50,392 bases of DNA from a virus (lineage: Duplodnaviria > Caudoviricetes). The position numbers and the translations under genes are program-made. Under the pieces are notes generated by a model. That model saw only the letters and a program-made list of their open reading frames with translations. It had not been told where the DNA came from and searched no databases. Where the stretch lies: positions 1-50,392 of the IMG/VR virus record IMGVR_UViG_3300048592_000543; one strand, given 5' to 3'. Positions 1-47,103 of this stretch are shown in pieces. How positions within the stretch are numbered: the stretch's first letter is position 1; the number at the start of each line of letters is the position of its first letter.

Positions 1-127
1 TTTTTCGATCATAAATTAGTTTCTCTTTCAGTCGCTGAAAATTTTGTCTTTCGTACTGTGCATGAGCTATCGAGAAATCGATCAGATATCTACAAAAAAT
101 CTCTTTTATCAAGATGGGTAGAGTCGT
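1..127. repeat. Terminal direct repeat copy 1 (circular contig overlap)
   Basis: Positions 1-127 are identical to 50266-50392; 127 nt equals a common assembler k-mer, and an ORF reads through the junction. Confidence 0.95.
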
Positions 128-5151: not shown

Positions 5152-5448
5152 ATGAATGGTGAGGATGTTCGGGTTCTAATGGAATCACTAAAAAAGAACT
5201 GGCTAGATTTTAAAGATGTCGAAAAAGTAAACGTAAAACAGCTTAGTAAAGAAGTAGATATCCCAGTAACAACAATGTGGTGTCATTTTCAGGGACAAAG
5301 AAAGTGGACGCTACTACCATTTCTAAAGAGCGCTCTTTACTTCGGAGCGCTTCGCGTTGATCTCAAAAAATGCGCTCTCACAATAAAATTTCCTGTAACC
5401 GAGCAAAACAGGAGAATCCTAAAGAGATTTGGAGTAACAAAAAAATGA
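5152..5448 (+). CDS. Putative HTH DNA-binding protein
   Basis: VKQLSKEVDIPVTTMWCHFQGQRKW resembles an XRE/Cro HTH. Confidence 0.55.
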   Translation: MNGEDVRVLMESLKKNWLDFKDVEKVNVKQLSKEVDIPVTTMWCHFQGQRKWTLLPFLKSALYFGALRVDLKKCALTIKFPVTEQNRRILKRFGVTKK

Positions 5449-5885
5449 AACTAATGAAAACCCATCCATCGAAAGTTATTCTGCATTGCTCGGCAAGTCC
5501 AGATTACACTAAGCTTGATGATAAATTCGACAGCATCACCGCCGATACAATCAACGCATGGCACATTGCTAGGGGTTTCGACAAAATCGGGTATCATTTT
5601 GTTATAAGGCGGAGTGGAAAACTCGAAACAGGAAGATTTTTAGACCAATTTTCTTGTGAGATCGGCGCACACACTATCGGCCACAACAACAATTCTGTCG
5701 GGATTTGTCTTGTCGGCACAAGGAAATTTACCGATGAGCAGATGAAAACGCTTGTAAAATTGGCGATGGAGCTAAAATTGCTCTATGGGATAGGTAAAAA
5801 TGCTTGGCATGGGCATTGTGAGTTTGCGGCAAAAGAGTGTCCAGGCATTTCGATGGACTATGTCAAAAATTTATTTGATTTTTGA
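5445..5885 (+). CDS. N-acetylmuramoyl-L-alanine amidase (T7 lysozyme/Amidase_2 type endolysin)
   Basis: VILHCSA, WHIARGFDKIGYHFVI, GAHTIGHNNNSVGICLVG, HGHCEFAAKECP; ATGA overlap with upstream stop. Confidence 0.92.
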   Translation: MKLMKTHPSKVILHCSASPDYTKLDDKFDSITADTINAWHIARGFDKIGYHFVIRRSGKLETGRFLDQFSCEIGAHTIGHNNNSVGICLVGTRKFTDEQMKTLVKLAMELKLLYGIGKNAWHGHCEFAAKECPGISMDYVKNLFDF

Positions 5886-7154: not shown

Positions 7155-7589
7155 TTACCTACTAAAAACGCAAACCCAATAATTAAGATGCATACCGCAC
7201 CCGATCTTTTCCCAAGATGGATCTAGCACAATTTGTTTGTGCTTCGGCGAATCTAGCAGTTTTTTAATAGCTTCGCTCGGCTTAATTTCATTGCACACAA
7301 TTACTTGTTCGGCTTTTGACGGCTCAAAGCCACAACGCCGCATTCTTGTGGCAAAAGAAGATCTATCAGAACCCACAGCAGAACAATATTTGTTTTTGCC
7401 GGTATCGAGAGCATGTGTTTGACTCGCGCATTGCAATTTTGAATTGATTGCGAGTGGTGCAAGATTACGATCAATTCTTTCGTAATTAAGCATTTTCTCA
7501 AACGGCATTGTATCACCTGCCAACGCAATTGTTCCGGATGAAATGAAGTAAAAAAACGAAAGAATTACCATCAAAAAAGCTTTAAACAT
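7155..7589 (-). CDS. Secreted CAP/SCP-domain protein
   Basis: Signal peptide ending ALA; LNYER...LAPL...LQCASQTHA...DSPKHKQIVLDP...IGCG...YWVCVF is the CAP pattern. Confidence 0.85.
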   Translation of the reverse strand: MFKAFLMVILSFFYFISSGTIALAGDTMPFEKMLNYERIDRNLAPLAINSKLQCASQTHALDTGKNKYCSAVGSDRSSFATRMRRCGFEPSKAEQVIVCNEIKPSEAIKKLLDSPKHKQIVLDPSWEKIGCGMHLNYWVCVFSR

Positions 7590-7701
7590 ACCATCTCCTT
7601 TTCACAAAAAATTAATTTTTATCACTCGCATTTGAGGATATGTTACGATGATAACGGCAATGTGCGCGCATATCAAATAAACTCTTTCGAAAGGTGAGAA
7701 A

Positions 7702-8256
7702 ATGGCAACCGAGCAAACATTAGACACAATCAATAATGTTAATCTCAAAGTCGTGCAAGAAGAACCATCTTGGGCAGCTGCACAACGGCAATTAGGAGCG
7801 GCGGCGCATCAAGATCGGCATGACCGCTTGTCTGAAGTCATGTACTCAGATCTTCTTGAGCATCGCAAGCATGTTAACACCCTGGCAACAACGTACCTAG
7901 GACGCATTTGTGACAACGCTAGCTCGCTGGATCCGGTTGAGGCAATCAGCATGGCCAAAGCTTTTAAAGGTGAATCTGATAGCTCAATCACTTCTCTGAT
8001 GGCCGCGCTTTCATCAGGGCAAATCGGCGGTAAAATCGCCATGACAACCCCACCGGAGACCGGTGTTACTCAAATGATTGCACAGCTAAACGCGCTCACT
8101 AACCAAAATAGCCAGAACAGCGGCACCATTGCTGCTCAAGTAATGGCGATGGCGAATGCGATGAATCACACAAACCAAAGCACAAATGCAGCAATGGTAG
8201 CTATTGCGCAAGTTTTGGCAAAATTAGCTCAGACCGTACCGCCGATTACTGGTTGA
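7702..8256 (+). CDS. RebB-like (R-body-like) protein, copy 1
   Basis: AAGGTGA RBS; N-terminal LDTINNVNLKVVQEEPSWA; Ala/Gln/Asn/Met/Thr-rich; paralog of next gene. The CDS is clear; the Reb assignment is by motif only. Confidence 0.6.
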   Translation: MATEQTLDTINNVNLKVVQEEPSWAAAQRQLGAAAHQDRHDRLSEVMYSDLLEHRKHVNTLATTYLGRICDNASSLDPVEAISMAKAFKGESDSSITSLMAALSSGQIGGKIAMTTPPETGVTQMIAQLNALTNQNSQNSGTIAAQVMAMANAMNHTNQSTNAAMVAIAQVLAKLAQTVPPITG

Positions 8257-8340
8257 TTTACCAAATTTTAACTAGGCATAAAACAATTGTTTGAATAAAC
8301 TCGCTAAAGTTTCTCTAAACAACATACGAAAGGAAAGATT

Positions 8341-8925
8341 ATGGCAACTGAGCAAACATTGGATACCGTAAACAATGTCAACATCAAAACCGTAGGCGAA
8401 GAACCAGCATGGGCAGCTGCACAACGTCAAGTGGGTAGTGCGGCGCATTTGGATCGTATGGACCGCATGTCTGAAGTGCTTTTCAGCGACTTGCTTGAGC
8501 ATCGCAAGCATATCAACTTGCTGACCACAACGTACCTGGGACGCGTTTGTGACAACGCTAGCTCGATCGATCCGGTCGAAGCTATTAGCACCGCGAAGGC
8601 TTTCAAAGGTGAATCTGATAGCTCGATCACTTCTCTGTTGGCAGCACTCGCGGCAGGGCAGATCAGCGCCAAGGTCGCCAACACCACGCCACCTGAAACT
8701 GGTATCACTCAGCTTTTTGCACAGCTGAATGCCCTCACAAACCAAAATTCACAAAATAGCGGCGCAATCGCTGCTCAGAATTTTGGCTTGTTAAATGCCA
8801 TGAACCAAACCAACCAGGCAACAAACGCAGCTATGGCGGCGATTGCTCAAGTGTTGGCAAAAATGGCACAAACCACTCCCCCAAATACCAGCAATGGCGG
8901 CGGCGGTAGCGGCGGCGTAATTTAA
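8341..8925 (+). CDS. RebB-like (R-body-like) protein, copy 2
   Basis: AAGGA RBS; LDTVNNVNIKTVGEEPAWA matches the RebB N-terminal motif in register; about 79% identical to copy 1 over the first 121 aa (hand count). Confidence 0.62.
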   Translation: MATEQTLDTVNNVNIKTVGEEPAWAAAQRQVGSAAHLDRMDRMSEVLFSDLLEHRKHINLLTTTYLGRVCDNASSIDPVEAISTAKAFKGESDSSITSLLAALAAGQISAKVANTTPPETGITQLFAQLNALTNQNSQNSGAIAAQNFGLLNAMNQTNQATNAAMAAIAQVLAKMAQTTPPNTSNGGGGSGGVI

Positions 8926-8943
8926 TCCACTTGACCACGTATG

Positions 8944-8979
8944 TTCCAGGGGCTAAAAAACCCCTGGAATTATTTTTTT
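8944..8979 (+). terminator. Intrinsic terminator after the reb-like pair
   Basis: TTCCAGGGG-8 nt loop-CCCCTGGAA followed by TTATTTTTTT. Confidence 0.8.
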
Positions 8980-8992
8980 CAGGAGAAAAATC

Positions 8993-9205
8993 ATGGATTG
9001 GCAAACAATTGCAAAACAACAGGAAGAACTATTGGCAGCTATCGAAGGATTGCAAAAAATCTTTGATCAAGCGAAAGAAGCGATAAAAATGAAACAGCAA
9101 AAAGTTTTGCAAATGCTGGCAGCGAATCAAAACGATGAAGCAAAAAACCTGGCTCAAATTCACCAGGCTCTTGACAATCTTCTAAAATCAGCAAACATCA
9201 GCTAA
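8993..9205 (+). CDS. Small Gln/Ala-rich helical protein (third gene of reb-like island)
   Basis: AGGAG RBS at 8981-8985; amphipathic helical sequence. Confidence 0.7.
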   Translation: MDWQTIAKQQEELLAAIEGLQKIFDQAKEAIKMKQQKVLQMLAANQNDEAKNLAQIHQALDNLLKSANIS

Positions 9206-9545
9206 TTTTTTTCACGTCTTTGCATGAATCAATCAGCTTCAAAATATAGCTAATCAGCCCAAGAGACTGGTTAACTATCTTTTCAACTCTTTGCTCTAGT
9301 TGATCAGATGGTAAATCAAACTCTTTTGAAAACTCAATATTCAATTCCGCTCTTTGTTCACTTGTCAAATTTTTTAGCTGCTCGCAAGCTTTCTCATAAT
9401 CGATTTCTGTTAGTTTTCGCGCTTCTCCAATAACTTTAAAAAGCTCTGGTAGGTCTTTTAAATCAACTTTTCCATCAGCAACGACTTCGCCGCCAATCGT
9501 TCCAACCCTTGCGCCAATCAATAAAATTTTCTTTAGTTCTTCCAT
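9198..9545 (-). CDS. Hypothetical phage protein
   Basis: GAGGGG RBS before MEELKK; DGKVDLKDL motif. Confidence 0.7.
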   Translation of the reverse strand: MEELKKILLIGARVGTIGGEVVADGKVDLKDLPELFKVIGEARKLTEIDYEKACEQLKNLTSEQRAELNIEFSKEFDLPSDQLEQRVEKIVNQSLGLISYILKLIDSCKDVKKIS

Positions 9546-9608: not shown

Positions 9609-9887
9609 TTAACTATTCATGAGAATAATTTCTATTCTTTTTAACTTTTCTTTTCGGTAATGGTCAACCATTTTTGACACGCCAAGCATCAATTCTAATT
9701 GTTCAATCATAATTTTACAATCTGCTATTTCTTCAGAAATTGAAGAAATCTTTGAAGCGTCATTGTGATTAAGCAGATATTTGCATAGTTCTTTTTGTAG
9801 TTCCGAAAACTCCTCAATCGCTTTTGTCACTTGATGAGATTTCCCATACCGCGCTATTAATCCGGCAAACATTGTTTTTTCGTCCAT
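9609..9887 (-). CDS. MazG-like nucleotide pyrophosphohydrolase
   Basis: YG...Q..KAIEEFSELQKELCK...ISEEIADCKIMIEQL, all-alpha NTP-PPase EExxE...EExD motif. Confidence 0.8.
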   Translation of the reverse strand: MDEKTMFAGLIARYGKSHQVTKAIEEFSELQKELCKYLLNHNDASKISSISEEIADCKIMIEQLELMLGVSKMVDHYRKEKLKRIEIILMNS

Positions 9888-10744
9888 AAAAACCCCATTT
9901 CGACTATTTTGGCGGCAAATAGCCATTCTATCGCCAAGTGTTCTTCGTGTTGTGAAAAATGATCGGATGACCAATTCAAGGATGTTTGATCATGTTGGAA
10001 CAAATAATCAGCCCTATATTCTCTGTTTGTTGGTAATCTGTCATTTGGAAAATATGTTGTGTTCATCAGTAGATCAATCGCATCATCTTGAGGACTGAGA
10101 GTCAGAAAATTATAAATTGCTCTATGCAAAGCATTCATCGGCTGATTTAAACAATGATGCTTCATGATTTTTATTTCTCTTTTTGTTGGAAGTCTCAAAA
10201 GAGATAGCGCGAATATGTGAAGCGCCTGGAGATGTCGCCTATAACCAGGCTGATTTGTGACTATGTTCATCGGTATTGGCCAAACCCAATCTTTAGGGCA
10301 AAAACGCATTAAAGATTTTCTGTCAGTGAAATGATAAATCGCTTCGAATATCGTTCCTCTGAGCGATGGGGTTAAATATGTTCTTGTGATGTCTCCTTTT
10401 CCCATGATCCAGCCACAAGATTCACCAAATAAAATTAGATCGTCGATAATATCGCTGCGCCTTTTGAATATGCACCACAAAAGCAATCCTAAAATCATAT
10501 CTCTCGATATCTCAGATCCCGACTCTTTGTTGCTATAGCAGTTAAATGATGGGTGTCGATGCCATTTCAAATATTTGTCTCTAGCGCTTTCGATGGGAAC
10601 ATTAACACCAGCAATTGACCACAAACAATTAAACAAAAGCCCATCGCATTTGCAAACTCTAGCCCATCCATATTTATCAAAGTTTTCTTTTCTTGATGAT
10701 AACGATAGATACAAATCAAATTTATCCATAAATTTTGATTTCAC
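9857..10744 (-). CDS. Hypothetical 295-aa protein, probably all-helical and possibly an enzyme
   Basis: Long ORF, GTGA-coupled to upstream gene; CDGLLF and ISRDMILG segments. Confidence 0.75.
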   Translation of the reverse strand: MKSKFMDKFDLYLSLSSRKENFDKYGWARVCKCDGLLFNCLWSIAGVNVPIESARDKYLKWHRHPSFNCYSNKESGSEISRDMILGLLLWCIFKRRSDIIDDLILFGESCGWIMGKGDITRTYLTPSLRGTIFEAIYHFTDRKSLMRFCPKDWVWPIPMNIVTNQPGYRRHLQALHIFALSLLRLPTKREIKIMKHHCLNQPMNALHRAIYNFLTLSPQDDAIDLLMNTTYFPNDRLPTNREYRADYLFQHDQTSLNWSSDHFSQHEEHLAIEWLFAAKIVEMGFLWTKKQCLPD

Positions 10745-26846: not shown

Positions 26847-28525
26847 AGTGATTCATCCACTTCTATAGAAAAATCGACATAATCAGCGCCATCACCCATG
26901 TTTAGATGGGTTTCTTCTGGCATAGTTGAAAGCTTTCCAAATACTGCAAACCGCGCTGGATCCGTTGAATCTGGTATCCAAAGGCATTTTAAAGACGTTC
27001 TTGCATAGTCGAAAACATAAACAAGATTTTCATAATTCCCCCTGCCATACGATAGCTTTTGAAAATCAAGATTAACTGCCTTTTTTAGCGATCTATCGTT
27101 CGATACGTTTGTAAAACCTTCTGTATTGACCTTGTCTGAAAAATGAATCTTGCGCTTTCTAACCTGATCAACAAAGCATTCACCTTGCAAAACAATAGAG
27201 CTACCGAAAACAATAGTTCCTATCGATAAATGATTATCTGGGTTTGTTGTATCAGAAACAATCAATCTCCAATACCTGTATTGCTTATTTGGGTATGTTG
27301 GCGCAATGTAATAGATATCTTGATTTCTGACTATTGTAATCGGTATCGATTCACCAACGGTTGAAAAGTCAGAAAAATTTGATCCCTCGAAAACTATAGC
27401 CGCCGATGTTGTGATATTGTGATTTAAAATTGCAAGCGTATCAACAGCAACACCCTGCGTTTTTTGAGTATCGCAAACGAGTATGACATACTTATCACCG
27501 TCAATAGATTGCCAACGCTGTTCGACAATATCAGTATTGAGATTTGATACAGAAAAATCCCCTGGTGCGGTTGATGTTGATGTCCAGTTTACTCCGGATA
27601 TTCCACGCGATGGGAATTCATAAAGCACACGCAAATTGTAATTGTTGTAAAGAATAAATTTTATTTGCATACCTAGTGAATATGCTCTAACGCGCTCCAC
27701 TTCCATGCCGAGCGCTTTTAAATGATCCTTAATTTGGTTTCTTATTTGCGATGCCGTAAAAGTAAGAGCCTCGATTACGCGATTAACTTCAGCGCCAATA
27801 GGAGCATCTTTTTTAAGTATCAGCCTTATTTCCATTGGACCGGCAACACAATAGCCGCCTGTCAAATATGGCGTTTCAAGATATCCTTGATTGAGATATC
27901 CTAACCCCTCGCAAGAAATATGAGGAAAGCTTTTATCCATCCTTACTTCAAAGCCCATAGATTTGGCTTTGTCGTTAATGTATCCCTTGGATTGCGCCGC
28001 ATTAGCTTTAAGCCTATCATTTATGATTCTATGCGTTTCCATTCCAAGCGGTTTTTGTGCTAATACTGTCATTTCAGACTGTAGCGCAACATAGTCGAGT
28101 TGATCTAAAAATCTAGCCTCGACTTCAAAACCAATCGGACTATCTTTTTTCATGATCAATTGTACTTCACACCCAAGCGCATGATCTTTGATCATTACGC
28201 GCTCAACTTCTAATCCCAATGTTTCAGATGCATCGCCTATGATTTTATTAATTTCAGATGCCATTTGCTTTTGACTGAAAAGTCCCGCCAATACTTCAAT
28301 ACCGATTGGTTTTTGATAATCAACTATCGAGCGTGATAGTTCCATAGCAACAGGCTTTTGATAATCAGATATGACATTTCTGATTTCCATTCCGATTGGT
28401 TTTTGCTTGTCAACAATCAATAGCCTTGTTTCCATTCCAAAGCTGTGTTGTGCGGTTCCGCCTAAATATGGTTCTTCATCTAAATATAAATTTTCTAAAT
28501 ATCCTTGTGTTTGCGGGTTTGTCAT
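26843..28525 (-). CDS. Distal tail protein with 14-15-aa N-terminal repeats and discoidin-like C-terminal domain
   Basis: Immediately after tape measure; KPIGME-type repeats; C-terminal LAILNHN...EGSN...QYRYWRL. Confidence 0.65.
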   Translation of the reverse strand: MTNPQTQGYLENLYLDEEPYLGGTAQHSFGMETRLLIVDKQKPIGMEIRNVISDYQKPVAMELSRSIVDYQKPIGIEVLAGLFSQKQMASEINKIIGDASETLGLEVERVMIKDHALGCEVQLIMKKDSPIGFEVEARFLDQLDYVALQSEMTVLAQKPLGMETHRIINDRLKANAAQSKGYINDKAKSMGFEVRMDKSFPHISCEGLGYLNQGYLETPYLTGGYCVAGPMEIRLILKKDAPIGAEVNRVIEALTFTASQIRNQIKDHLKALGMEVERVRAYSLGMQIKFILYNNYNLRVLYEFPSRGISGVNWTSTSTAPGDFSVSNLNTDIVEQRWQSIDGDKYVILVCDTQKTQGVAVDTLAILNHNITTSAAIVFEGSNFSDFSTVGESIPITIVRNQDIYYIAPTYPNKQYRYWRLIVSDTTNPDNHLSIGTIVFGSSIVLQGECFVDQVRKRKIHFSDKVNTEGFTNVSNDRSLKKAVNLDFQKLSYGRGNYENLVYVFDYARTSLKCLWIPDSTDPARFAVFGKLSTMPEETHLNMGDGADYVDFSIEVDESL

Positions 28526-31500
28526 GATCTGATTCCCTTGCTGCTAATTACAAATTCACCGTTAAGCGTTCTTCTTTTGATGTCTTCTTTGATCCTTGGC
28601 ATAAGCGTATTTCTGAAAAAAGTATCATCAATCGGCTTTGTTGTCTCGATCTCAATATTAATAGTGATATTCGGTTGCATCATCTGATTGCCAGTATTTA
28701 ATGAGTTGAGATATCCCAATCCTAGCCCTCTAGTCGCGTTTCTGTTGATAACAAATTCGCCTGGATTTAACATCGCTGGCACCTGCCCACCGAGCGCAAA
28801 TGATGGAACCAAACCGCCGCTATGAAATTTGTTTGCCTCAAACATCTTCATTACCATGTCAAACGCCTGTTTTCTGACAACATCCCAAAGACCGCCAAGA
28901 GGAGTCAAAATGTCTTTAACAACCTCAACCGGAGACGGTATTACTGTTTGATCGCCAATCGAAACGCCTTTATCAGAAATGCCTATTGTAGTTCCACCAA
29001 CTTTAATCGATCCACCCCAATATCGTTCTGGTGAAAGCCTTCCAGAAAGAACGCCGTCAACAATTGATTTGATACCCTGGTTTTCCATCATAGACCTTGG
29101 AATAATTGCCTCGCCTGGTGATAGTAGCGCTAAAACTCGATCATTAAGTTTACTGTCGCCGCCAACCAAAGCATTGCCAGGAACAAGACCGCCCTTTGCA
29201 AATGAAATAAATGGAACATCTATATTAGGCCCCATTTTGCTCAATGTTTTTTCAACAGTTCCTTGACCACTAGCTCCTTCTATATTAAACATTTTCTTAA
29301 ACAGATTGCTTGGATCTAGTTTCGCTAGCTGATCACCTAAAAGCTTTCCAATTCCTGATAAGCCATTTTTAAGACCATCCCAGATCTTTGTACCGATCCC
29401 AGAAAAAAGATTTCCGTTATCCTTGATTCCTTTGACAAGCCCATCCCAGATCTTTGTACCGATATCTTTGAGTGATTCCCAGAAGCTTGAAAACGATTTT
29501 ATAAGCCCATCCCAAACGCTTTTTATGATGTCGATGATTGTTGTTAGCGCGGCAATAACACCATCCCAAATGCCTCTTAAACCATCCCACAGTGTTTGTA
29601 GTGTTGTCAAAACATGCTGCCAAATGCCTTTTAGCCCTTCTAATAGCTGCGATCCTGTCTTTACTATGGTATCCCATACGCTTGATAGTGCTTCTATAAC
29701 TACCTTCCAGATCGATTCGAGAGCATTCCAAAGATTTGTTAGCGCTTCGATTACAATTGCCCAAAGAGCCTCAACTGCTTGCCAAACGCCTTTTAGAGTA
29801 TTGATCATTCCATCCCACAACAATTTCACAAAATCCCACAATCCGCGCCACATTCCAACAATACCATTCCAAACATCTTGTAATATTTTCAATAGTTTGT
29901 GCCACCACATGGTAAGATAGTCTACCGATTTTTTAGCTCCATCATAAATGTTATCTTTGATCTTATCAACGATATCACCTGTTGTTGCTCCTGCCTGTAA
30001 ATCCATAACAGCGAATATTTTGCTTGACTCATTTGTCAATGTTTTTGATGCCGCTCGCCATGACTTCGTTAAGTCATCACCAATCTTTTTTGTGTCAGGA
30101 CCTTTTATCGATATTCCCTTGAGAAAATCACCGAGCTTTTTAATTCCATTGACTATGCCGTTTATTATTCCATTAACAACAGCACCAACAACGCGCATCC
30201 AGGCAACCATGAGTTTGGGTATAAGCTTTATAAACGCCTGAACAAACATCCATACCATTCTTGGAGCATTATCAATTATTGACACAACAAGCTTTTCAAC
30301 GATATCTGGAATCCTATCAATAAACTTATCGATCACATTTGGTAGCTGATCAAGAAGACTTTCGAGAGCCTTTGGTAGTTCTTCGGCAGCATGATCGACT
30401 ATTGTTTCTATTATATCAGGTATTGCTTGCATAATGTTTGGAATGAAATTCTTGATAAAATCACTTAGTGACCGATTCAGGTTTTTAAATGAGTTTAAAA
30501 GAACACTTCCGAAGTTTGTAAGCTTATCGAATAAACCTGATATTTTGTCGATAAATTGCGGTATGAAATCTATTATTTTACCAATCGCATCCATAATCAT
30601 TGATGCTACATTTATTCCTGCCGTCATCATACCTAACGTGCCTTGCTGGAAAACTGTAGTCAAAGAATTAGCGGCTTCTGAACCAGCCTTCATGATGTTT
30701 TGATATTCAAAAGATGGTTGCTTTGCTAATGCAGCTTCTTTTTCTAGCTCTAAAATCTCCTTATATTTTTGTACAGTATCCTCGATTACTTGATTGCTAA
30801 TATTTAAATATCTAGCTCGTCTAACCAAAACATCTAGTGACTTAATTTGTAAATCGTAAGAATCAGAGGTCTTCTCATACTCTGTTTTTGCGCTTTCTGT
30901 GTTTTTATTATTTATCTCTGATATTTTTTCACCCAAAGAAATTAGCAATTTCATGCTTTCCTTAGATTCTTTTGTTGCTATGTATTTAGATAATTCACCT
31001 CCAGCTTTCGCTATTTCTTCATAAGCTCCTATTTGAGCGGATTTAAAAAACTCAAGTTTATCTGTTAAGTTTTCATAAGAGCTTGCCATCAAGTCAAAAC
31101 CATCTTCTCCCTCATTGAAAAAAGAAAAACCAATTTCTTCAAGCTTAATCATTTCGTCTTCTAATTTAATTATTTCATTCTTTATAAACTCAAGATATTT
31201 ATAATGAGATAATTGGTTTACAAGTTTAACCGTTTCACCGAGTGTTTTTCTTTCATCTTCTCTAAGTTTTCCAAGCCTTTCGATTCCCTTAAGCTGTTTA
31301 TACAAAAGCTTTTGCTGATCATCGGCTTGTTGATATATTATTTCTGCCTCTTGACCTGTTGTTTTTCTTATTTCATTTTGGATTTGTTTTTTAAATTCTA
31401 AGACTTTTTCTATTGTGTCTAATCTCAGTTTTTCCATATCAAGAAGATTCTGCATTTTTTGCTTTTCAAGATCAGCATATTTAGCAGCTGCTTGTTTTTC

Positions 31501-33279
31501 ATCTATATTGCTTTGTAATACAGATTCAATTTCAGTATTGATTTGTTTCTGTTTGGCCAATATCTTGTCAAACTCATCTCCTATGGTTAGCTGCCTTTGA
31601 ATCTGAGAATCAAAGCCCTTATTGATATCAGAAGCTAATTTTATAACAGTATCTCTATATGTTTGCGCTGCTTTTTTAGCTTCTTCCATTTGTTTTTTGA
31701 TAGCTTGACTTTGATTTTTCAATTTGTCGTTGAATTTATCGGCAGAATAACCAGATTTATTAAACTCATTTCCCATTCCCTTGACTATCTCAACAACGGA
31801 TCCAATCGCACCAGTGTCAAACTGTATCGAATCAGCGGTTTGCTTTATCTGATCAATCGTTTTTGATTGCTTCTCATTTAAATCATCGTAATTTGCAGCA
31901 AGATCGCCGATTGATTTTTTCGCTTTCTTTCTTAGATCATCAAGAGACATTCCAAACATATTCAGCAATTTTTCTGGAATAGCCTCGGCTACCGATTGAC
32001 TCAAATCATAGAACAGTATTTTTAGCGCAACAATTCCTTTTTCAAATTGAATCATCAAGTATGACCAAGATTGCTTGACGATATTAATCATCGTTGGTAT
32101 TTGACTTAAATTCCTAACAACAAGATCTATTGCCAAAGCTAGAATAGCTGCTTTTGCAGCGACTAAAGCAATTGGTATTGCCGCCGCAAAAAAAGCCGCC
32201 GCAACACCAGAGATTGCAGTTCCCAGCGCAACGATTGCAGCTAATATTGTAGGACCAAAATATGTTAATATTGCAGTTCCAACAGCCATTAAAATTGGTA
32301 CAAGCTTTTCAAGATGCTTAGAAGATGAATCAATCCATTCGGAAAATTCTGATATAAATTTATTTGCTTTTTCTAAAGTGGAGATCATCCAATTATAAGC
32401 ATCTCCAAGATTGAATATTTTAGATATTAATTCGCCTATTCCTTCGTATAAATTACCTAACAATATCTCTTGATATTTTTGTTTATCGGCAAGTGTTACA
32501 AGCTCTTTTTTTGAGAAGTCAGAATATTTCTTCGCAAGAATATCTATCGCTTCTCCCTGCCTAATTTGATATTGCGTTAATAGTTTTACCTCTGGTGCAT
32601 ATTGTGCTAGCTCTCCGGCCTCTCCCTTAAGTGTTGCTGCTAACTTTTGAAAAGATGCATTTAAATCATCTCCTGTCACATTGGAAAGAGATGTCGCTGT
32701 AACAATCATCTTTTCTAATAGATCATCGTTTATTCTCATAGCCTTTCCTTTTGCTATGAGATTCAAAACATATTCACCATCAACAAGAGAGTTTTTCTCA
32801 ACAGCATCGGCGAATGACTCCCACTTCTTTATTGATTCACCTATATTTTCTTCATTTATTAGCTTTAGTGTTTTTGAAAGATCATATGCGGCTTGTTCTT
32901 TTTCTTTAAATGCGCTTATCACTTTGTTTATTGGATCAATTATCGCGCTATATGCTTTTCCAGCAAGATCTAAAGCCTGATTTATAGCAATTAAACCGCC
33001 GCCAACACCGCCTAGTTTTGATCCAAAATTATTTAGAAAATCACCTGCTTTTTTTGCGGAGTTATTCATTGATTCAAAACTAGACACAACACCAGAAACG
33101 CTTTTGTTTACACCGCCAAATGCTTTACCTAATCTAGGATCAATATCAGTAAGGTTTTTTTCTATCTTGTTTCCAACGCTCAAAAGACTTTCTAAACTAT
33201 TTTTTACAGCCTCAACATTTTTTGTAGCGCCTTTTGATTCTACTGATAATTCAATCAGCATATTTTCTGTGACTGCCAT
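28522..33279 (-). CDS. Tail tape measure protein
   Basis: 1585 aa helical; Trp-periodic repeats; C-terminal FAKGG...ALLSPGE and FHSGG...AMLNPGEFV motifs. Confidence 0.92.
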   Translation of the reverse strand: MAVTENMLIELSVESKGATKNVEAVKNSLESLLSVGNKIEKNLTDIDPRLGKAFGGVNKSVSGVVSSFESMNNSAKKAGDFLNNFGSKLGGVGGGLIAINQALDLAGKAYSAIIDPINKVISAFKEKEQAAYDLSKTLKLINEENIGESIKKWESFADAVEKNSLVDGEYVLNLIAKGKAMRINDDLLEKMIVTATSLSNVTGDDLNASFQKLAATLKGEAGELAQYAPEVKLLTQYQIRQGEAIDILAKKYSDFSKKELVTLADKQKYQEILLGNLYEGIGELISKIFNLGDAYNWMISTLEKANKFISEFSEWIDSSSKHLEKLVPILMAVGTAILTYFGPTILAAIVALGTAISGVAAAFFAAAIPIALVAAKAAILALAIDLVVRNLSQIPTMINIVKQSWSYLMIQFEKGIVALKILFYDLSQSVAEAIPEKLLNMFGMSLDDLRKKAKKSIGDLAANYDDLNEKQSKTIDQIKQTADSIQFDTGAIGSVVEIVKGMGNEFNKSGYSADKFNDKLKNQSQAIKKQMEEAKKAAQTYRDTVIKLASDINKGFDSQIQRQLTIGDEFDKILAKQKQINTEIESVLQSNIDEKQAAAKYADLEKQKMQNLLDMEKLRLDTIEKVLEFKKQIQNEIRKTTGQEAEIIYQQADDQQKLLYKQLKGIERLGKLREDERKTLGETVKLVNQLSHYKYLEFIKNEIIKLEDEMIKLEEIGFSFFNEGEDGFDLMASSYENLTDKLEFFKSAQIGAYEEIAKAGGELSKYIATKESKESMKLLISLGEKISEINNKNTESAKTEYEKTSDSYDLQIKSLDVLVRRARYLNISNQVIEDTVQKYKEILELEKEAALAKQPSFEYQNIMKAGSEAANSLTTVFQQGTLGMMTAGINVASMIMDAIGKIIDFIPQFIDKISGLFDKLTNFGSVLLNSFKNLNRSLSDFIKNFIPNIMQAIPDIIETIVDHAAEELPKALESLLDQLPNVIDKFIDRIPDIVEKLVVSIIDNAPRMVWMFVQAFIKLIPKLMVAWMRVVGAVVNGIINGIVNGIKKLGDFLKGISIKGPDTKKIGDDLTKSWRAASKTLTNESSKIFAVMDLQAGATTGDIVDKIKDNIYDGAKKSVDYLTMWWHKLLKILQDVWNGIVGMWRGLWDFVKLLWDGMINTLKGVWQAVEALWAIVIEALTNLWNALESIWKVVIEALSSVWDTIVKTGSQLLEGLKGIWQHVLTTLQTLWDGLRGIWDGVIAALTTIIDIIKSVWDGLIKSFSSFWESLKDIGTKIWDGLVKGIKDNGNLFSGIGTKIWDGLKNGLSGIGKLLGDQLAKLDPSNLFKKMFNIEGASGQGTVEKTLSKMGPNIDVPFISFAKGGLVPGNALVGGDSKLNDRVLALLSPGEAIIPRSMMENQGIKSIVDGVLSGRLSPERYWGGSIKVGGTTIGISDKGVSIGDQTVIPSPVEVVKDILTPLGGLWDVVRKQAFDMVMKMFEANKFHSGGLVPSFALGGQVPAMLNPGEFVINRNATRGLGLGYLNSLNTGNQMMQPNITINIEIETTKPIDDTFFRNTLMPRIKEDIKRRTLNGEFVISSKGIRS

Positions 33280-43319: not shown

Positions 43320-44810
43320 CTAATAAATCAATGACTTTAATCGAAGGTTTAAATCTTCCTGATTTTCCCTAATTCTACGAATAGCCTTTTTCATTTCCTC
43401 GTCGTCTTCTTCTTCGTTTTCTTGTTGCCTATTTTCTTGCCTGTTTTCTTCCCTTGTTTCTTCCTCTGTTTCTTCTTGCTGTTCATCAACCCTGATAGGC
43501 ACCTCAACCATTTTTTCCATCGACATGTTGAGCTTTTGCAATTGATCGATCACAACACCCAGAAGAACATTGGTTTGTTTCGATAAATCGATCTGAGGAT
43601 TTACAGTCTCTTGAACAGCCTCAGAACCTGTTGGAATTACGTTTTTTACCGCCTGATCATTTGCGCCTTTTGAATCTGAATTTTCATCAGATTTTTCTGG
43701 TTGTTTAACAGTTCCGCCAAATTTATTGAGGTATAACCAAGTTACCACAGCCCAATATTTTTCAGGATCTTCCCTTGAATAACCTTGATCTGCAGCTTCT
43801 TTTGCCTTTGCCCATGCTGCCTCATTTGCAACCCACGATGCTGGATTTCCCTCATCATTATTAGCGCAAGCGGAAGCCTCTGCTTGCATTTCTGCAATAG
43901 CAGATTCAACATCTTCTTTTTGCATCATTTGATCATCAGCCTTTTGCGTTTCTTCTTCTGATGATTCGGAATCATTTTCACCAGGCTTTTCTTCTTCGTT
44001 TTCACCAGGCTTTTTTTCTTCTTCTTCTTGCATCTTCTTGCCTTTGATGATTGCCTTGATCGTCGGTGTTAGATCAATTTCAATTGTTTCAACATTATCG
44101 TCATGTTTTTGGATAAATTTCCAGCAATTATCACTCTCATCAATTTTTTCTACCGAATATTTCTTTTCTGCCAGAAATTTTTTTGCTTTTTCTAAACTTT
44201 CAAACCCTTCCTTTTGCACGATCAGGCTCAATAGTTCCAGTGTACCACATGGGGAATTTTTTTTGACAGTGCTGACAATTTCTCTCTGCACATTTTTTTT
44301 GTAATTGTCCCACCATCTTCTGGCTGTTTTTGTGCGCGAATCAGATAGCGATTTCGATAGCATTGAAAATGTTGAATCTTGGTTCATCGGTATTGGCACA
44401 AATGAAATTTCTAAAAGCTCAGCATCCGTAATCCTCTTTATGTTTTCTTCTTTTGCTGAATTTTTTGGATCAAATCCAACGGAAAAAGTTTTTAGGATCC
44501 CTTCCTCAACAAGATCTCTTACAGCGGTTATTTTTTCAGTTTTGCTGTTAGAAATTTCAACTTCACAATAAAGCCCTTCTTCTTTTGGTTCGACCTTGAT
44601 TGCTTTTCCAACCGGCAAAGAACCAAAAGCCAGATCCATCCCATGATCAAAAAGAACAATCGGATTCTTTTTATAGTTATCAAGTCGCCATGCCTTAGGA
44701 TCTATAATTTCCTCGGCTCTATCAATTGTTGCGGCGTTTGCAAAACCAGCAACAACAATGCTTCCGTTCTTTTTTGATTTGACTTCAAAATTAAAATTCA
44801 ATCTATTCAT
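43320..44810 (-). CDS. HK97-type prohead protease with long acidic scaffold-like extension
   Basis: GFAN...DRAEE...NPIVLFDH...PVGK...FSVGF...LLEISFVPIPMN. Confidence 0.9.
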   Translation of the reverse strand: MNRLNFNFEVKSKKNGSIVVAGFANAATIDRAEEIIDPKAWRLDNYKKNPIVLFDHGMDLAFGSLPVGKAIKVEPKEEGLYCEVEISNSKTEKITAVRDLVEEGILKTFSVGFDPKNSAKEENIKRITDAELLEISFVPIPMNQDSTFSMLSKSLSDSRTKTARRWWDNYKKNVQREIVSTVKKNSPCGTLELLSLIVQKEGFESLEKAKKFLAEKKYSVEKIDESDNCWKFIQKHDDNVETIEIDLTPTIKAIIKGKKMQEEEEKKPGENEEEKPGENDSESSEEETQKADDQMMQKEDVESAIAEMQAEASACANNDEGNPASWVANEAAWAKAKEAADQGYSREDPEKYWAVVTWLYLNKFGGTVKQPEKSDENSDSKGANDQAVKNVIPTGSEAVQETVNPQIDLSKQTNVLLGVVIDQLQKLNMSMEKMVEVPIRVDEQQEETEEETREENRQENRQQENEEEDDEEMKKAIRRIRENQEDLNLRLKSLIY

Positions 44811-47103
44811 TTGGCTGTGCCTCGCTTTCTTGGCTTTGAAATTGTGCCATCTCTTTCGCTGGTAAAATTATGAACGTGCATCGGCAATTTATCACGTTTG
44901 CCGCGCTTCCGTTTGGATCCCTTGGAAATTCTAGCATCTCACCAGTTCTCGGTTCTCTGAATGATTTATCATGATCAACAACTTGACCATGAAGCCCCCA
45001 ATGATCGCATTTACTATCTGCATATAAGCCGCCTGGATTTCCTCTTGTGCGGTTATCTTCTGTTGAAATCCATAGCTTCTTGAGATCTGGGATTGTCTTT
45101 GAAGCTTCTTTTGTGAGATTGTTCTGACCAATTGAGAGCGCGCCTAAAACTTCAGTCCTTGAAATCCTATCGGCTCGGTACATAATCTTATCGGCGTTAG
45201 AATAGACACCAGCAATTTGATTTGCTATTTGCTGAACAGTATCAGAATTATCGATCCCTCGACGAATAATGCGATAAACATCATTCGTTGTTTTTTCATT
45301 CATCAATTCAAATGTTCTTCTGGCTCTTTTCTCCAAATCTTTTTTCATGTCGTTTTTGACTTTCTCAGTCAACTCTGGGAGTTTTTCCTCTACCCTAAAC
45401 GGCAAATCTTCGCCGAGAACATAACCAGCAATGCTTACTCCATGCGCTATTGTTTTATACTGATTAAGCCAATCGCTTGCATAGCCAGCAATTTCAGCAG
45501 CTATGATTTCTTTTATAAATTTTTCTTCTTTTGAATCTGTTTCTTTCGCTTTTTTTGGAGATGCTTTTTCGAGAATTTTATCAAGCTTTTTTATCACTGA
45601 TACTGATTGATCAGCGAAAAGCTTAACAACATTCTGTGCTATTTTTTTTTGAGGATCATTGACAGCTTTTGCGATTTCTCTTTTATGTCTTTCAAACCAA
45701 TCGCCGTTTTTTTTAATCAGAATATCGGCGGTGTTATCTTTTGTTTCTTGAGATTCAATTGCGTGAACATCTTCAATTTTATTAACTGATTTTAGATTGT
45801 CCGCGAATGTGTGAAGACCAAAAAAAGGCATTTGCTGATTTTGCGTGAATCCAGGCAATGCATCGCCGCCCTCAATCGGCGGTAGTTTGTAGAGCTTTTC
45901 CCTTACTTCATTTATTGTGTGCGTCTTCAGAAGTCCGGCAGCAATATTAGCTTTTTCAATCTCATTTTCCTTGAGGATATCAACGTTTGAATTGTCAAAC
46001 TGAACAAAATATTGATCACCTAGAAGAAGTTTGTATGATCTATTGAATTCTCCAGAAATAATATTTTGCATTGGAATGATTGTTGATGACCAGAAATTTT
46101 TCAGCGCTGTTCGATACTCCTCAGATCCCAAAGAACCAGCTGTTTGCAATCCTACCTCATGCTTAGGCACCTTAAGTAGTGATAGGATATCTTCCCTATT
46201 GAGCGTTACATAGTCCTTCAACTGCTGATCTGCAAGCGTAGCAGCTATCTGTTTAACCGTTACACCCTTGGGCAAAACCATTGTGCGCCTCTGGTTTTTC
46301 CTGCCAGTGTATGCAGCCTCAAACGATCTCAAAAGCCTTAGAGCGCTATGCTCGTTAGCCTCTCCCGTCATCTCCAAAGCATTGCCAGATGTTGCGCCTT
46401 TGAGATAGAAATTGTTGAGATATTCGCTTGTGAATCTGCCAAAAAGAACAGATTTTCTACCTGGAACAAAAGGAGAAAGACCCCAAAACATAGAATCGGG
46501 GTTTGGTCTTCGCGCATGAATAATCTCTTTTACCGGATACGTTCCCTCAAGCTCTTTTAACTGTTCCAACCAATTAAAATTGTACCTGCGATATTGCGAT
46601 AGATTTTTTTCTTTATCAAAGATCAAAAGAATTTGATTTGATGGGAGATGAAAAAGCGTTTGCCCAAATGGACCTTTCCATAAAATCCCATTACCCATAA
46701 GCACTAGGTCAACAGCGTAACAATACATTAGCTCATGATAATCTTGGAACGAATTCGGGTTATTTATCGTTTTTTGAAGTGGATGGTTTGGGGCTGGTTC
46801 AACCATCTCTTCGCCATTTTCCTTTAAGATCTTTCGATAAACAACAAGCTTTTGTGTGCTTATTTTTAATGCAACAAGATCGCAAATAACGTAAACCCAA
46901 TGCTCATCTGAGAAAAGGTTTTTCAAAGATTGCTGATCGATCAGCGCTCTTTCTTCTTCAGAAAAAACCCCCGACAAATCAGAATAATCTGTTGCATATG
47001 AGAAAGATTTTATTTCTCTTTCTGCTTGCTGATTTGTTAGCGCCGAGTATTCGCGTAAAATCTTGTTTAGCGATTTCACTTCATTGTTTTCTATAGTGTC
47101 CAT
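44803..47103 (-). CDS. Portal protein fused to MuF/SPP1 gp7-like head morphogenesis domain
   Basis: N-terminal WVYVIC...NPN...GNG...IIHAR...GLSP portal; C-terminal RISRTE...KKLW...INCRC. Confidence 0.9.
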   Translation of the reverse strand: MDTIENNEVKSLNKILREYSALTNQQAEREIKSFSYATDYSDLSGVFSEEERALIDQQSLKNLFSDEHWVYVICDLVALKISTQKLVVYRKILKENGEEMVEPAPNHPLQKTINNPNSFQDYHELMYCYAVDLVLMGNGILWKGPFGQTLFHLPSNQILLIFDKEKNLSQYRRYNFNWLEQLKELEGTYPVKEIIHARRPNPDSMFWGLSPFVPGRKSVLFGRFTSEYLNNFYLKGATSGNALEMTGEANEHSALRLLRSFEAAYTGRKNQRRTMVLPKGVTVKQIAATLADQQLKDYVTLNREDILSLLKVPKHEVGLQTAGSLGSEEYRTALKNFWSSTIIPMQNIISGEFNRSYKLLLGDQYFVQFDNSNVDILKENEIEKANIAAGLLKTHTINEVREKLYKLPPIEGGDALPGFTQNQQMPFFGLHTFADNLKSVNKIEDVHAIESQETKDNTADILIKKNGDWFERHKREIAKAVNDPQKKIAQNVVKLFADQSVSVIKKLDKILEKASPKKAKETDSKEEKFIKEIIAAEIAGYASDWLNQYKTIAHGVSIAGYVLGEDLPFRVEEKLPELTEKVKNDMKKDLEKRARRTFELMNEKTTNDVYRIIRRGIDNSDTVQQIANQIAGVYSNADKIMYRADRISRTEVLGALSIGQNNLTKEASKTIPDLKKLWISTEDNRTRGNPGGLYADSKCDHWGLHGQVVDHDKSFREPRTGEMLEFPRDPNGSAANVINCRCTFIILPAKEMAQFQSQESEAQPNE

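What the first reader, a model, noticed from the sequence alone, without database searches (positions are those of the whole stretch)
7702..9205. Phage-encoded tandem of RebB-like (R-body-like) genes
Seen: two adjacent + strand paralogs (184 and 194 aa, about 79% identical over the first 121 aa by hand count) with good RBSs form an island between - strand genes. They are very rich in A/Q/N/T/M and poor in aromatics. Their N-terminus TLDTVNNVNIKTVGEEPAWA aligns without gaps to the RebB motif as I recall it (ITDSVTQVNTKVLGEAPAMA; shared D.V..VN.K..GE.PA.A). Known: Reb proteins polymerise into pH-responsive coiled ribbons (R-bodies) that rupture membranes (Caedibacter killer trait, Azorhizobium, Pseudomonas), and reb genes occur as tandem paralogs. 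Inference: this virion-competent phage makes its host build a divergent, longer R-body-like polymer, for example to kill or escape grazing protists or to aid lysis.
Basis: partly seen in the sequence, partly recalled or inferred. Interest (0 to 1): 0.9.

Follow-up and report, generated by a model that had tools for sequence, protein, structure and literature searches.

The report
Phage-borne extended R-body (Reb) protein genes
A complete, uncultivated tailed-phage genome carries two tandem genes for unusually long relatives of the Reb proteins that build bacterial R-bodies, which gives sequence-level support to the old, unresolved idea that R-bodies are linked to phages.

Summary
ORFs 7702-8256 (184 aa) and 8341-8925 (194 aa) are real paralogs: 96/121 identical over the first 121 residues, 78% over 183, and dN/dS is 0.01-0.13. 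Pfam RebB (PF11747) does not hit them, even at E<=10. Homology is nevertheless solid. A profile of 15 long forms aligns to ten bona fide PF11747 proteins with hhalign probability 99.5% and E 5e-23, and Reb2 residues 3-123 cover a whole 125-aa RebB. Residues 124-184 are an extra Q/N-rich helix that ends in a duplicated Reb C-terminal module.

The window is a complete siphovirus-like genome with 127-bp direct terminal repeats. The two genes form a GC-rich unit closed by a terminator, followed by a conserved 70-aa helical gene. In distant phages the cassette sits elsewhere, for example between terminase and portal, as accessory "moron" genes do. Canonical-size Reb genes occur in 8 further IMG/VR contigs. 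Four tblastn queries found none in 50,697 GenBank phages, and a 2013 survey reported none in phages.

Polymer or R-body formation and any anti-grazer role remain untested inference. Verdict: a new phage-borne variant of a known family. Interest 0.7.

The parts
7689..7698 (+). SD-like ribosome-binding site (GAAAGGTGAG) of reb-like gene 1. It lies in the 112-nt divergent intergenic region shared with the - strand CAP-domain gene.
   Evidence: Read directly from the sequence. No sigma-70-like + strand promoter was found in 7590-7701 by the consensus scan.
7702..8256 (+). reb-like gene 1 (184 aa, 19.5 kDa, pI 5.65). Reb core is residues 3-123 (7708-8070); the Q/N-rich extension with a duplicated C-terminal module is residues 124-184 (8071-8253).
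   Evidence: HMM of ten PF11747 proteins: 71.1 bits. Internal duplication score 53 against shuffles 25.6+-4.6, reached by 0 of 1000. Mass and pI.
8328..8337 (+). SD-like ribosome-binding site (GAAAGGAAAG) of reb-like gene 2, in the 84-nt spacer between the two genes.
8341..8925 (+). reb-like gene 2 (194 aa, 20.1 kDa, pI 5.26). Reb core is residues 3-123 (8347-8709), the extension is residues 124-184 (8710-8892), and the Gly-rich tail is residues 185-194 (8893-8922).
   Evidence: hhalign residues 3-123 against RebB 8-123 of 125. HMM 81.6 bits. Duplication score 57 against 26.6+-4.5, reached by 0 of 1000. All-helical AF2 model, mean pLDDT 65.8.
8943..8980 (+). Intrinsic terminator closing the two-gene unit: a 10-bp stem with 6 GC pairs, followed by a T-run.
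   Evidence: It is the only terminator-like site found in 7400-9400.
8993..9205 (+). ORF70: a 70-aa (7.9 kDa) helical protein with its own AGGAG ribosome-binding site. A similar small gene follows the reb-like gene in several distant phages. It is a candidate accessory or assembly factor and is not a Reb homolog.
   Evidence: tblastn finds it after the reb gene in L003 (41%), L004/L005 (100%), L006 (74%) and L007 (36%). A similar 73-aa ORF in L016 is 27% identical in alignment A7. dN/dS against L006 is 0.077. The Reb HMMs score it at only 1.8-3.1 bits. Pfam and PHROGs give only weak coiled-coil-type hits.

Best explanation
The two genes encode divergent, extended members of the Reb (R-body structural protein) superfamily. 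An uncultivated siphovirus-like phage carries them as an insulated accessory ('moron'-type) unit. Each protein is a complete Reb core (residues 3-123) plus a roughly 60-residue uncharged Q/N-rich helix that ends in a second copy of the Reb C-terminal '...AK.AQTTPP.T' module. They have no signal peptide, so they stay in the cytoplasm of the infected cell. There, expressed from strong ribosome-binding sites, the two paralogs most likely co-polymerise into a Reb-type helical polymer, either an R-body-like ribbon or a related assembly. The conserved 70-aa downstream gene may help as a non-incorporated assembly factor, analogous to but not homologous with RebC. Shown: coding status, paralogy, homology to Reb, domain architecture, phage context and mobility of the cassette. 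Inferred: polymerisation, R-body morphology, pH response, the role of ORF70 and the benefit to the phage. Candidate benefits are protection of infected cells or progeny in protist phagosomes, or killing of grazers.
For: Homology to Reb:
- The A3 profile, built without any strong Pfam member, finds 241 proteins at E<=1e-3 among 1.84 billion representatives. These include bona fide RebB proteins over nearly their full length: P0065 (87.6 bits to PF11747) at 4.2e-19 and P0040 (65 bits) at 6.4e-12.
- 30 of the 145 best hits match PF11747 at E<=1e-3.
- hhalign of the 15 long forms against ten PF11747 members gives 99.5% probability, E 5.2e-23, 114 columns.
- The local HMM scores 81.6 and 71.1 bits, against 4.8 bits for the next best of 313 ORFs.

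Reb-like traits:
- Tandem paralogs.
- All-helical prediction.
- One Cys and few aromatics per protein.
- The KxxxE motif followed by Pro, as in the diagnostic set of PMC13430693 (passages read).

Real, selected genes: dN/dS is 0.01-0.13.

Accessory-cassette architecture:
- A terminator follows Reb2.
- Terminator hairpins and strong SD sites precede the homologs in other phages.
- GC is 48.7% and 51.5%, against 39.0% for the genome.
- The position varies: between TerL and portal in L003 and L016, beside tail-fibre genes in L009, beside a regulator and a PAPS reductase in L013, and here between the lysis/recombination arm and the end of the late operon.

Weak hints of transcription: two metatranscriptome contigs lie on 8242-8508 (7 differences in 267) and 8963-9210 (11 in 248).

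Precedent in print:
- R-bodies were seen with phage-like particles, and the reb plasmid pKAP298 carries phage-like genes (PMC3583457, passages).
- RebC is needed for assembly but is not incorporated (abstract of 10.64898/2026.05.21.725848).
Against: - PF11747 itself does not match either protein, even at E<=10.
- Two of the four diagnostic Reb motifs (NAV, QQ(Q)) are replaced by a charged, His-rich stretch (residues 36-60: 9 charged residues and 3-4 His).
- The proteins are 19.5-20.1 kDa, whereas known Reb proteins are 7-15 kDa (PMC13689365).
- There are only two paralogs, whereas 471 of the 671 surveyed reb-harbouring taxa carry at least 3 reb homologs in one cluster (PMC13430693).
- In L003, L016 and L024 the Reb gene lies inside or next to the packaging/head module, which would also fit a virion or assembly role.
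- The AF2 monomer model is of modest confidence (pLDDT 65.8, pTM 0.24), and no structural match exists to test the fold.
- RNA contigs cannot prove transcription, because DNA can be present in RNA libraries.
- The host is unknown, and no integrase or repressor was seen among the ORFs I scanned. Any benefit through lysogenic conversion is therefore unsupported.
Confidence: 0.55

Rival explanations
1. Reb-fold proteins have been recruited as a virion-associated or morphogenetic component, such as a scaffold-like, internal/ejection or decoration protein. They would not be a free cytoplasmic R-body.
For: In L003 and L016 the single reb-like gene, with the small helical gene, lies co-oriented between the TerL and portal homologs. 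In L024 a canonical-size Reb gene lies 38 nt upstream of TerL and portal. In L009 the copies precede a tail-fibre-like gene. The proteins are long helical, Ala/Gln-rich and likely abundant, as scaffolds and ejection proteins often are (my own knowledge).
Against: The position is not conserved, whereas true structural genes keep their synteny. In the window the genes lie about 9.6 kb, measured across the genome ends, from TerL (47112-48494), and they run antiparallel to the roughly 40-kb late operon, with their own terminator. In L003 a terminator hairpin separates TerL from the reb gene. No PHROG of any structural category matches. The homologous family is known only as a cytoplasmic polymer.
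Confidence: 0.2
2. A Reb-derived helical protein has a different, non-polymer role in host takeover, for example a soluble effector, an anti-defence protein or a membrane-active lysis helper. The Reb similarity would then reflect ancestry only.
For: Divergence from canonical Reb: no Pfam hit, loss of the NAV/QQ(Q) motifs, a charged His-rich segment and an added C-terminal extension. The genes lie 1.8 kb from the amidase endolysin (5370-5885) and next to a secreted CAP-domain moron. Most of the other phage contigs carry a single Reb gene.
Against: The whole Reb core is retained under strong purifying selection, including the N-terminal D..V..N.K...E.P motif and the C-terminal TTPP module. The extension duplicates the Reb C-terminal module rather than adding a new domain. 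Tandem paralogs and strong expression signals fit a stoichiometric structural product.
Confidence: 0.2
3. The ORFs are chance open frames, or the RebB resemblance is a compositional artefact of Ala/Gln/Asn-rich sequence.
For: The composition is biased (44% A+Q+N+T+M). There is no direct Pfam or PHROG hit.
Against: There are 40 homologs at E<=0.01, down to 32% identity, with conserved blocks. dN/dS is far below 1. Profile-profile E is 5e-23 over 114 ordered columns with position-specific motifs. The HMM separates the two ORFs from 311 others by more than 65 bits.
Confidence: 0.01

Closest known systems
RebA/RebB/RebD R-body structural proteins (Pfam PF11747 'RebB, killing trait'), known from Caedibacter taeniospiralis type 51 R-bodies, Pseudomonas aeruginosa PA14, Azorhizobium caulinodans and others
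   Same: - Homologous over the whole Reb length.
- The N-terminal D-x-V-x3-N-x-K-x3-E/D-x-P motif and the C-terminal G-Q-x3-K-x-A-x-T-P-P-x-T module are kept.
- The proteins are predicted all-helical.
- They are poor in Cys and aromatics and have no signal peptide.
- They occur as tandem paralogs.
   Different: - They fall below the Pfam model's detection.
- They are 19.5-20 kDa instead of 7-15 kDa.
- The central 'NAV...QQ(Q)' region is replaced by a charged, His-rich stretch.
- A Q/N-rich helix and a duplicated C-terminal module are added.
- There are two genes, not three or more.
- They are encoded by a tailed phage rather than a chromosome or plasmid.
- No sigma-factor or regulator gene and no recognisable toxin gene lies beside them.
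RebC of C. taeniospiralis, a small non-Reb protein needed for R-body assembly but not incorporated
   Same: ORF70 is a small (7.9 kDa) non-Reb protein encoded directly after the structural genes. A similar gene follows the reb-like gene in several lineages.
   Different: Raymann et al. found no RebC homologs outside Caedibacter (PMC3583457). ORF70 is absent after the reb-like gene in L008, L009 and L013. The binding prediction gave no verdict.
Phage 'morons': autonomous accessory transcription units inserted between conserved phage genes (concept recalled from the lambdoid-phage literature, not from a call)
   Same: The unit is flanked by terminators and has strong ribosome-binding sites. Its GC differs from the genome's (49-52% against 39%). 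Its insertion site varies among related phages.
   Different: A promoter was not identified. The phage shows no lysogeny genes among the ORFs I scanned, so this is not classical lysogenic conversion.
Canonical-size Reb genes on other IMG/VR phage contigs (L018-L025)
   Same: They belong to the same superfamily (A6 HMM E 1e-20 to 1e-48). They are phage-borne, with TerL/portal, primase/helicase or DnaB nearby. Two of the five records tested pass the Pfam RebB cut-off.
   Different: They are 106-142 aa. They lack the C-terminal extension. Most are single-copy (L025 has two). They sit in unrelated phage backbones.

Membership tests
Reb / R-body structural proteins (Pfam PF11747 RebB) | Match to the Pfam RebB HMM at or above its 24-bit gathering score | tested here: not met
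   There is no hit for either protein even at E<=10, and none in the six-frame search of the record. The Pfam model covers only 68 N-terminal positions.
Reb / R-body structural proteins (Pfam PF11747 RebB) | Full-length homology to proteins that do pass the Pfam cut-off | tested here: met
   hhalign of A2 against A6 (all ten A6 rows are at or above 24 bits) gives probability 99.5%, E 5.2e-23, residues 3-123 against 8-123 of 125. The A6 HMM scores 81.6 and 71.1 bits. The A3 profile finds P0065 at 4.2e-19 in 1.84 billion proteins.
Reb / R-body structural proteins (Pfam PF11747 RebB) | Domain-1 motifs of 'primary' Reb proteins: QITD(N), and KxxxD/E followed by a kink proline (PMC13430693) | tested here: inconclusive
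   KxxxE is present (K16-E20: KTVGE and KVVQE) and is followed by P22. QITD is represented by Q5-T-L-D8, so only Q and D are kept. The proline upstream of the motif is absent.
Reb / R-body structural proteins (Pfam PF11747 RebB) | Domain-3 motifs NAV and QQ(Q) (PMC13430693) | tested here: not met
   The aligned positions read SDLLEHRKH in both window proteins. Some relatives keep QNLVGHQQR. The paper itself says these motifs are not absolutely conserved.
Reb / R-body structural proteins (Pfam PF11747 RebB) | Small size, 7-15 kDa (PMC13689365) | tested here: not met
   The proteins are 19.47 and 20.11 kDa. The excess is the 60-70-residue C-terminal extension, a partial duplication of the Reb C-terminal module.
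Reb / R-body structural proteins (Pfam PF11747 RebB) | Several paralogous reb genes clustered together; 471 of the 671 surveyed reb-harbouring taxa have at least 3 in one cluster (PMC13430693) | tested here: inconclusive
   There are two tandem paralogs and no third Reb-like ORF among 313 window ORFs. Two copies are also seen in 4 of the 15 related loci: L004, L006, L008 and L009.
Reb / R-body structural proteins (Pfam PF11747 RebB) | All-alpha-helical, Cys-poor, aromatic-poor and cytoplasmic | tested here: met
   The AF2 model is helical (H4-75, H78-104, H107-115, H122-178) with mean pLDDT 65.8. Each protein has 1 Cys and 4-6 aromatic residues. The N-terminus MATEQTLD is not signal-peptide-like (direct reading).
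Reb / R-body structural proteins (Pfam PF11747 RebB) | Assembly into an insoluble, refractile coiled ribbon that extends on a pH or ionic trigger | not testable with these tools
   This needs expression and microscopy. No solved Reb structure exists in the PDB copy for comparison.
Phage moron (autonomous accessory unit) | Own terminator, deviating composition, and a variable insertion site among related phages | tested here: met
   Terminator at 8943-8970. GC 0.487 and 0.515 against 0.390. Different neighbours in the window, L003/L016, L009 and L013. Upstream terminators and SD sites in the homologs.
Phage moron (autonomous accessory unit) | Own promoter | tested here: inconclusive
   The consensus scan found no + strand sigma-70-like site in 7590-7701. 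The host and its promoter type are unknown.

The most novel reading that the evidence does not exclude
Tailed phages are natural carriers, and possibly the original spreaders, of R-body genes. This apparently non-temperate phage would make its dying host assemble a pH-triggered, membrane-piercing Reb polymer late in infection. Infected cells or progeny swallowed by protists would then rupture the phagosome, escaping digestion or killing the grazer. That would be a virus-encoded anti-predator device, and it would explain the 1960s-70s observations of virus-like particles attached to R-bodies. The His-rich charged segment and the Q/N-rich duplicated tail would retune the trigger and the lattice.
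Probability: 0.2. Interest if true: 0.9.

Novelty: new variant of a known kind. Interest (0 to 1): 0.7.

Why it matters
R-bodies are unusual protein machines: energy-free polymers that extend about 50-fold and pierce membranes. They are used in killer symbioses and in virulence, and they are of interest for synthetic biology.

Whether they derive from phages has been open since virus-like particles were seen on them. The 2013 genomic survey found no Reb homolog in any phage genome, and no prophage signal near reb loci (PMC3583457). The main text of the 2026 BMC Genomics survey (PMC13430693) never mentions phage.

Here a complete phage genome carries Reb-family genes, and several other uncultivated phages do too. 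These include a distinct extended subfamily that Pfam cannot see. This has three consequences:
- The phage link becomes directly testable by expressing a 1.5-kb cassette.
- The family is enlarged with a new architecture, a duplicated C-terminal module and a His-rich centre, which is useful for engineering trigger and lattice properties.
- It suggests phages as a vehicle for the extensive horizontal transfer reported for reb genes.

Tried and rejected
Direct family searches
- Pfam gave no hit and PHROGs gave only noise for both proteins. PF11747 on the six frames of the record gave nothing, and the 14 control genomes were also silent.

Structure searches
- PDB by sequence, with profile A1 and with P0040, found no Reb structure.
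- Foldseek of the AF2 model gave 0 matches against the PDB and nothing at E<=0.001 against BFVD.
- ESM Atlas gave no usable hit for Reb2 and only generic helical hairpins for ORF70.

Binding
- Complex prediction for Reb2 with ORF70 returned 'no answer' (score 0.00, controls not run). This counts neither for nor against binding.

Related sequences
- Pattern scans of the species-representative genomes found no relative of the long forms (A2) or of the 117-152-aa forms (A5). A5 also found nothing in the viral contigs. These scans use two short peptide patterns, so absence is weak evidence.
- Four tblastn queries (Reb2, P0040, P0179, L020 Reb) against 50,697 GenBank phages found no match. The low-complexity filter may hide biased sequences.
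- Megablast of 20001-45000 found no match.

Host assignment failed
- There is no tRNA.
- The best cultured-phage TerL is 29.9% identical and the best major capsid protein at most 28%.
- The listing of cluster members gave no names.

Other
- The antisense ORFs 7809-8042, 8272-8745 and 8427-8708 were rejected as shadows of the + frame.
- DNA-run shares and uncovered stretches are not used as evidence of habitat or absence.
- The sigma-70 scan gave no + strand promoter upstream of Reb1.
Full report
**1. The observation**

The window holds two adjacent + strand ORFs, 7702-8256 (184 aa) and 8341-8925 (194 aa).
- Both have purine-rich SD-like sites.
- With a third + strand ORF (8993-9205, 70 aa) they form an island between - strand genes.
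- A+Q+N+T+M make up 44% of each protein. Each has one Cys and 4-6 aromatic residues.
- The reading frames are under strong purifying selection. dN/dS is 0.129 between the paralogs, 0.038 and 0.013 against a near-identical phage (L004), and 0.06 against L006. ORF70 against L006 gives 0.077.
- The antisense ORFs listed are therefore shadows of the + frame.

**2. Is it RebB-like?**

Direct tests fail. Pfam gives no family for either protein even at E<=10, PHROGs gives only noise, and PF11747 run on the six frames of the record finds nothing.

Transitive and profile evidence is strong.
- A word-indexed search found 40 relatives at E<=0.01. Only the weakest, P0040 (122 aa), carries PF11747.
- Of the 31 members of alignment A1, 11 match PF11747 at E<=1. 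Among the ten I scanned one by one, only P0037 (24.7 bits) and P0040 (65 bits) reach the 24-bit cut-off.
- A profile built without P0040 (A3, 30 sequences) was run against 1.84 billion representatives. It found 241 proteins at E<=1e-3 and 92 at E<=1e-10.
- Of the 145 best new hits, 30 match PF11747 at E<=1e-3.
- I picked ten of these hits by similarity to P0040. Nine pass the Pfam cut-off, at 25.6-96.2 bits.
- Those nine plus P0040 form alignment A6. hhalign of the 15 long forms (A2) against A6 gives probability 99.5%, E 5.2e-23 and 114 columns, with Reb2 residues 3-123 on residues 8-123 of a 125-aa RebB.
- An HMM of A6 scores the two window ORFs at 81.6 and 71.1 bits. The next best of 313 window ORFs of at least 40 aa scores 4.8 bits.
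- Much of the similarity lies in the C-terminal half (DP.EA...G-Q...K.A.TTPP.T), which the 68-position Pfam model does not cover. This probably explains why Pfam misses these proteins.

**3. Architecture**

Residues 3-123 are a complete Reb core. Against the diagnostic motifs published in 2026 (PMC13430693, passages read):
- KxxxE followed by a proline is present (K16-E20, P22).
- QITD appears as QTLD.
- NAV and QQ(Q) are replaced by SDLLEHRKH, inside a segment (residues 36-60) with 9 charged residues and 3-4 His.

Residues 124-184 carry no acidic and one basic residue, and 16-20 Gln/Asn. This region ends in a second copy of the Reb C-terminal module.
- The local alignment score of the extension against the core is 53 (Reb1) and 57 (Reb2).
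- Shuffles give about 26+-4.5, and 0 of 1000 shuffles reach the observed score.
- The A6 HMM sees the second copy as a weak second domain.
- A similar duplication occurs in P0074, a Pfam-positive protein.

Reb2 adds a Gly-rich tail. The masses are 19.5 and 20.1 kDa, above the 7-15 kDa quoted for Reb proteins (PMC13689365). AF2 with the family alignment predicts four helices, with mean pLDDT 65.8 and pTM 0.24. There is nothing to compare this with: the PDB holds no Reb sequence, and Foldseek finds no match in the PDB or in BFVD. PMC13430693 also notes that no atomic R-body structure exists.

**4. Context**

The window is a whole IMG/VR virus record with direct terminal repeats and 100% estimated completeness. 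I found an exact 127-bp repeat.
- PHROGs identify TerS (48902-49408), TerL, a portal, a protease/scaffold-like protein, the major capsid protein, a 1585-aa tape measure and tail fibres. All lie on the - strand between 49.4 kb and 17.4 kb.
- The + strand left arm encodes a RecE-like exonuclease, an Erf-like annealing protein, a ParB-like nuclease and an amidase endolysin (5370-5885).
- Flanking the Reb island are a secreted CAP-domain protein (7155-7589, -) and a MazG-like pyrophosphohydrolase (9609-9974, -).
- None of the roughly 37 ORFs I scanned matched an integrase or a repressor. Not all ORFs were scanned, so lysogeny is not excluded.
- The phage is far from cultured phages. There is no megablast match, and the best TerL is 29.9% identical. 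The host is unknown, and there is no tRNA.

**5. The cassette behaves like a moron**

Reb2 is followed by the only terminator-like hairpin in 7400-9400 (8943-8970). The genes have 48.7% and 51.5% GC against 39.0% for the genome.

Related loci number one IMG/VR contig and 14 metagenome contigs. None was found in the species-representative genomes by pattern scan. tblastn of all window ORFs against these loci shows the following.
- L004 and L005 are the same phage type, and L006 keeps the same local order.
- In L003 and L016 the backbone is only 25-29% identical. There a single reb-like gene lies between the TerL and portal homologs, followed by a small helical ORF.
- In L008 and L009 two copies are separated by two other genes and precede a tail-fibre-like gene.
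- In L013 the gene sits beside a regulator and a PAPS-reductase-like gene.
- Two copies are visible in 4 of the 15 loci (L004, L006, L008, L009). Many of the other contigs are too short to judge.
- In most loci the upstream region shows a terminator hairpin of the preceding gene, then a strong GGAG-type SD before the ATG.

Structural genes keep their place among related phages; accessory units do not. That is my main argument against a virion role.

**6. ORF70**

A 70-81-aa helical gene follows the reb-like gene in the window, in L004/L005, and in L006 (74%), L003 (41%) and L007 (36%). A 73-aa ORF in L016 is similar in position and pattern (27% identity in A7). No such gene follows the reb-like gene in L008, L009 or L013.

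ORF70 is not Reb-like and belongs to no known family. By analogy with RebC, which is required for ordered assembly but is not incorporated (abstract of 10.64898/2026.05.21.725848), I propose that it is an assembly helper. This is inference only. The complex prediction gave no verdict.

**7. Transcription hints**

Two wetland metatranscriptome runs each contain one contig on the cassette: 8242-8508 (7 differences in 267) and 8963-9210 (11 differences in 248). The second spans ORF70 from just inside the terminator. These are contigs from relatives, and DNA carry-over cannot be excluded, so this is only a weak hint.

**8. Reb genes in other phages, and novelty**

The canonical alignment A6 finds 8 further IMG/VR contigs that carry Reb genes of 106-142 aa.
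- L024 has the gene directly upstream of TerL (E 2.6e-34) and portal (E 7.3e-44).
- L023 (a complete record with terminal repeats) has TerL, a DNA methyltransferase and a DnaB-like helicase.
- L019 (a complete record) has a primase/helicase.
- PF11747 itself matches 4 of the 5 records tested at E<=0.01, and 2 of the 5 over the cut-off.

By contrast, four tblastn queries found nothing in 50,697 GenBank phage records.

In print:
- Raymann et al. 2013 state that they found no Reb homologs in phage genomes and no prophage signal around reb loci. [quoted passage not shown]
- The 2026 phylogenetic survey never uses the word 'phage' in its main text (PMC13430693).
- The 2026 AEM paper mentions only co-purifying phage-like tubes (PMC13689365).
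- My searches for 'R-body'+'RebB'+'phage', for 'reb genes'/'bacteriophage'/'prophage'/'killing trait', for 'PF11747' and for 'R-body'/'phage-encoded'/'refractile' turned up no report of a phage-encoded Reb.
- Supplementary tables were not available to me.

**9. Mechanism and verdict**

Most likely (0.55): the phage expresses two extended Reb paralogs in the cytoplasm, and they co-assemble into a Reb-type polymer. Why a phage would want this is open. The most attractive idea is protection of infected cells or progeny against protist digestion. It builds on two published points: R-bodies act in acidified phagosomes and can deliver toxins (PMC13733733, passages), and phage-like particles were historically seen on R-bodies. 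No recognisable toxin gene lies beside the cassette.

The rivals are a virion or assembly role (0.2), a non-polymer role for a Reb-derived helix (0.2), and artefact (0.01).

The finding is a new, phage-borne, extended variant of a known family. The homology is established and the function is not.

Noticed in passing
window 7155-7589 (-): A 144-aa protein with a clear N-terminal signal peptide and a CAP/SCP domain (Pfam PF00188, E 8.5e-11; PHROG 'moron' category). It is transcribed divergently from the reb cassette and is 97% conserved in L004. It is a second accessory gene in the same island, with unknown role.
   Followed up: partly
L008 826-3087 and L009 2846-5104: Two reb-like copies are separated by a secreted Cys-rich protein of 151-156 aa and a protein of 224-226 aa that contains an 'AHELI' (HExxH-like) stretch. 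This is a different cassette layout from the window's, and it has no ORF70.
   Followed up: partly
L024 7908-11927; L003 5690-10540; L016 17-3628: Reb-family genes recur right at the terminase/portal junction in three unrelated phage backbones: upstream of TerL in L024, and between TerL and portal in L003 and L016. This could be a favoured moron insertion site or a hint of a packaging- or head-related role.
   Followed up: partly
window 1-127 and 50266-50392: An exact 127-bp direct terminal repeat. The genome has no detectable DNA similarity to any of 50,697 GenBank phages, and TerL is at most 30% identical to cultured phages (the best is a Tunturiibacter phage). This is a deep-branching, hostless lineage.
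   Followed up: partly
window 44803-47103 (-): The 766-aa portal ORF matches both portal PHROGs (N-terminal two thirds) and 'head morphogenesis' PHROGs (residues about 470-760). This suggests a fused portal and SPP1 gp7/Mu F-like head-morphogenesis protein.
   Followed up: no
window 28522-33279 (-): The 1585-aa tape measure protein also matches an endolysin PHROG (phrog_971, E 7e-12) in residues about 1130-1400, so it may carry a cell-wall-degrading domain.
   Followed up: no
protein P0074 (152 aa): A Pfam-positive RebB-family protein from a metagenome also has a duplicated C-terminal '...K.AQSTPPET' module. C-terminal module duplication is therefore recurrent in the superfamily and not unique to the phage forms.
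   Followed up: no
window 8242-8508 and 8963-9210: Contigs from two wetland metatranscriptome runs lie on the start of Reb2 and on ORF70. The ORF70 contig begins inside the terminator hairpin and ends 5 nt after the stop codon, which is compatible with a separate ORF70 transcript. Contigs cannot show transcript ends.
   Followed up: partly
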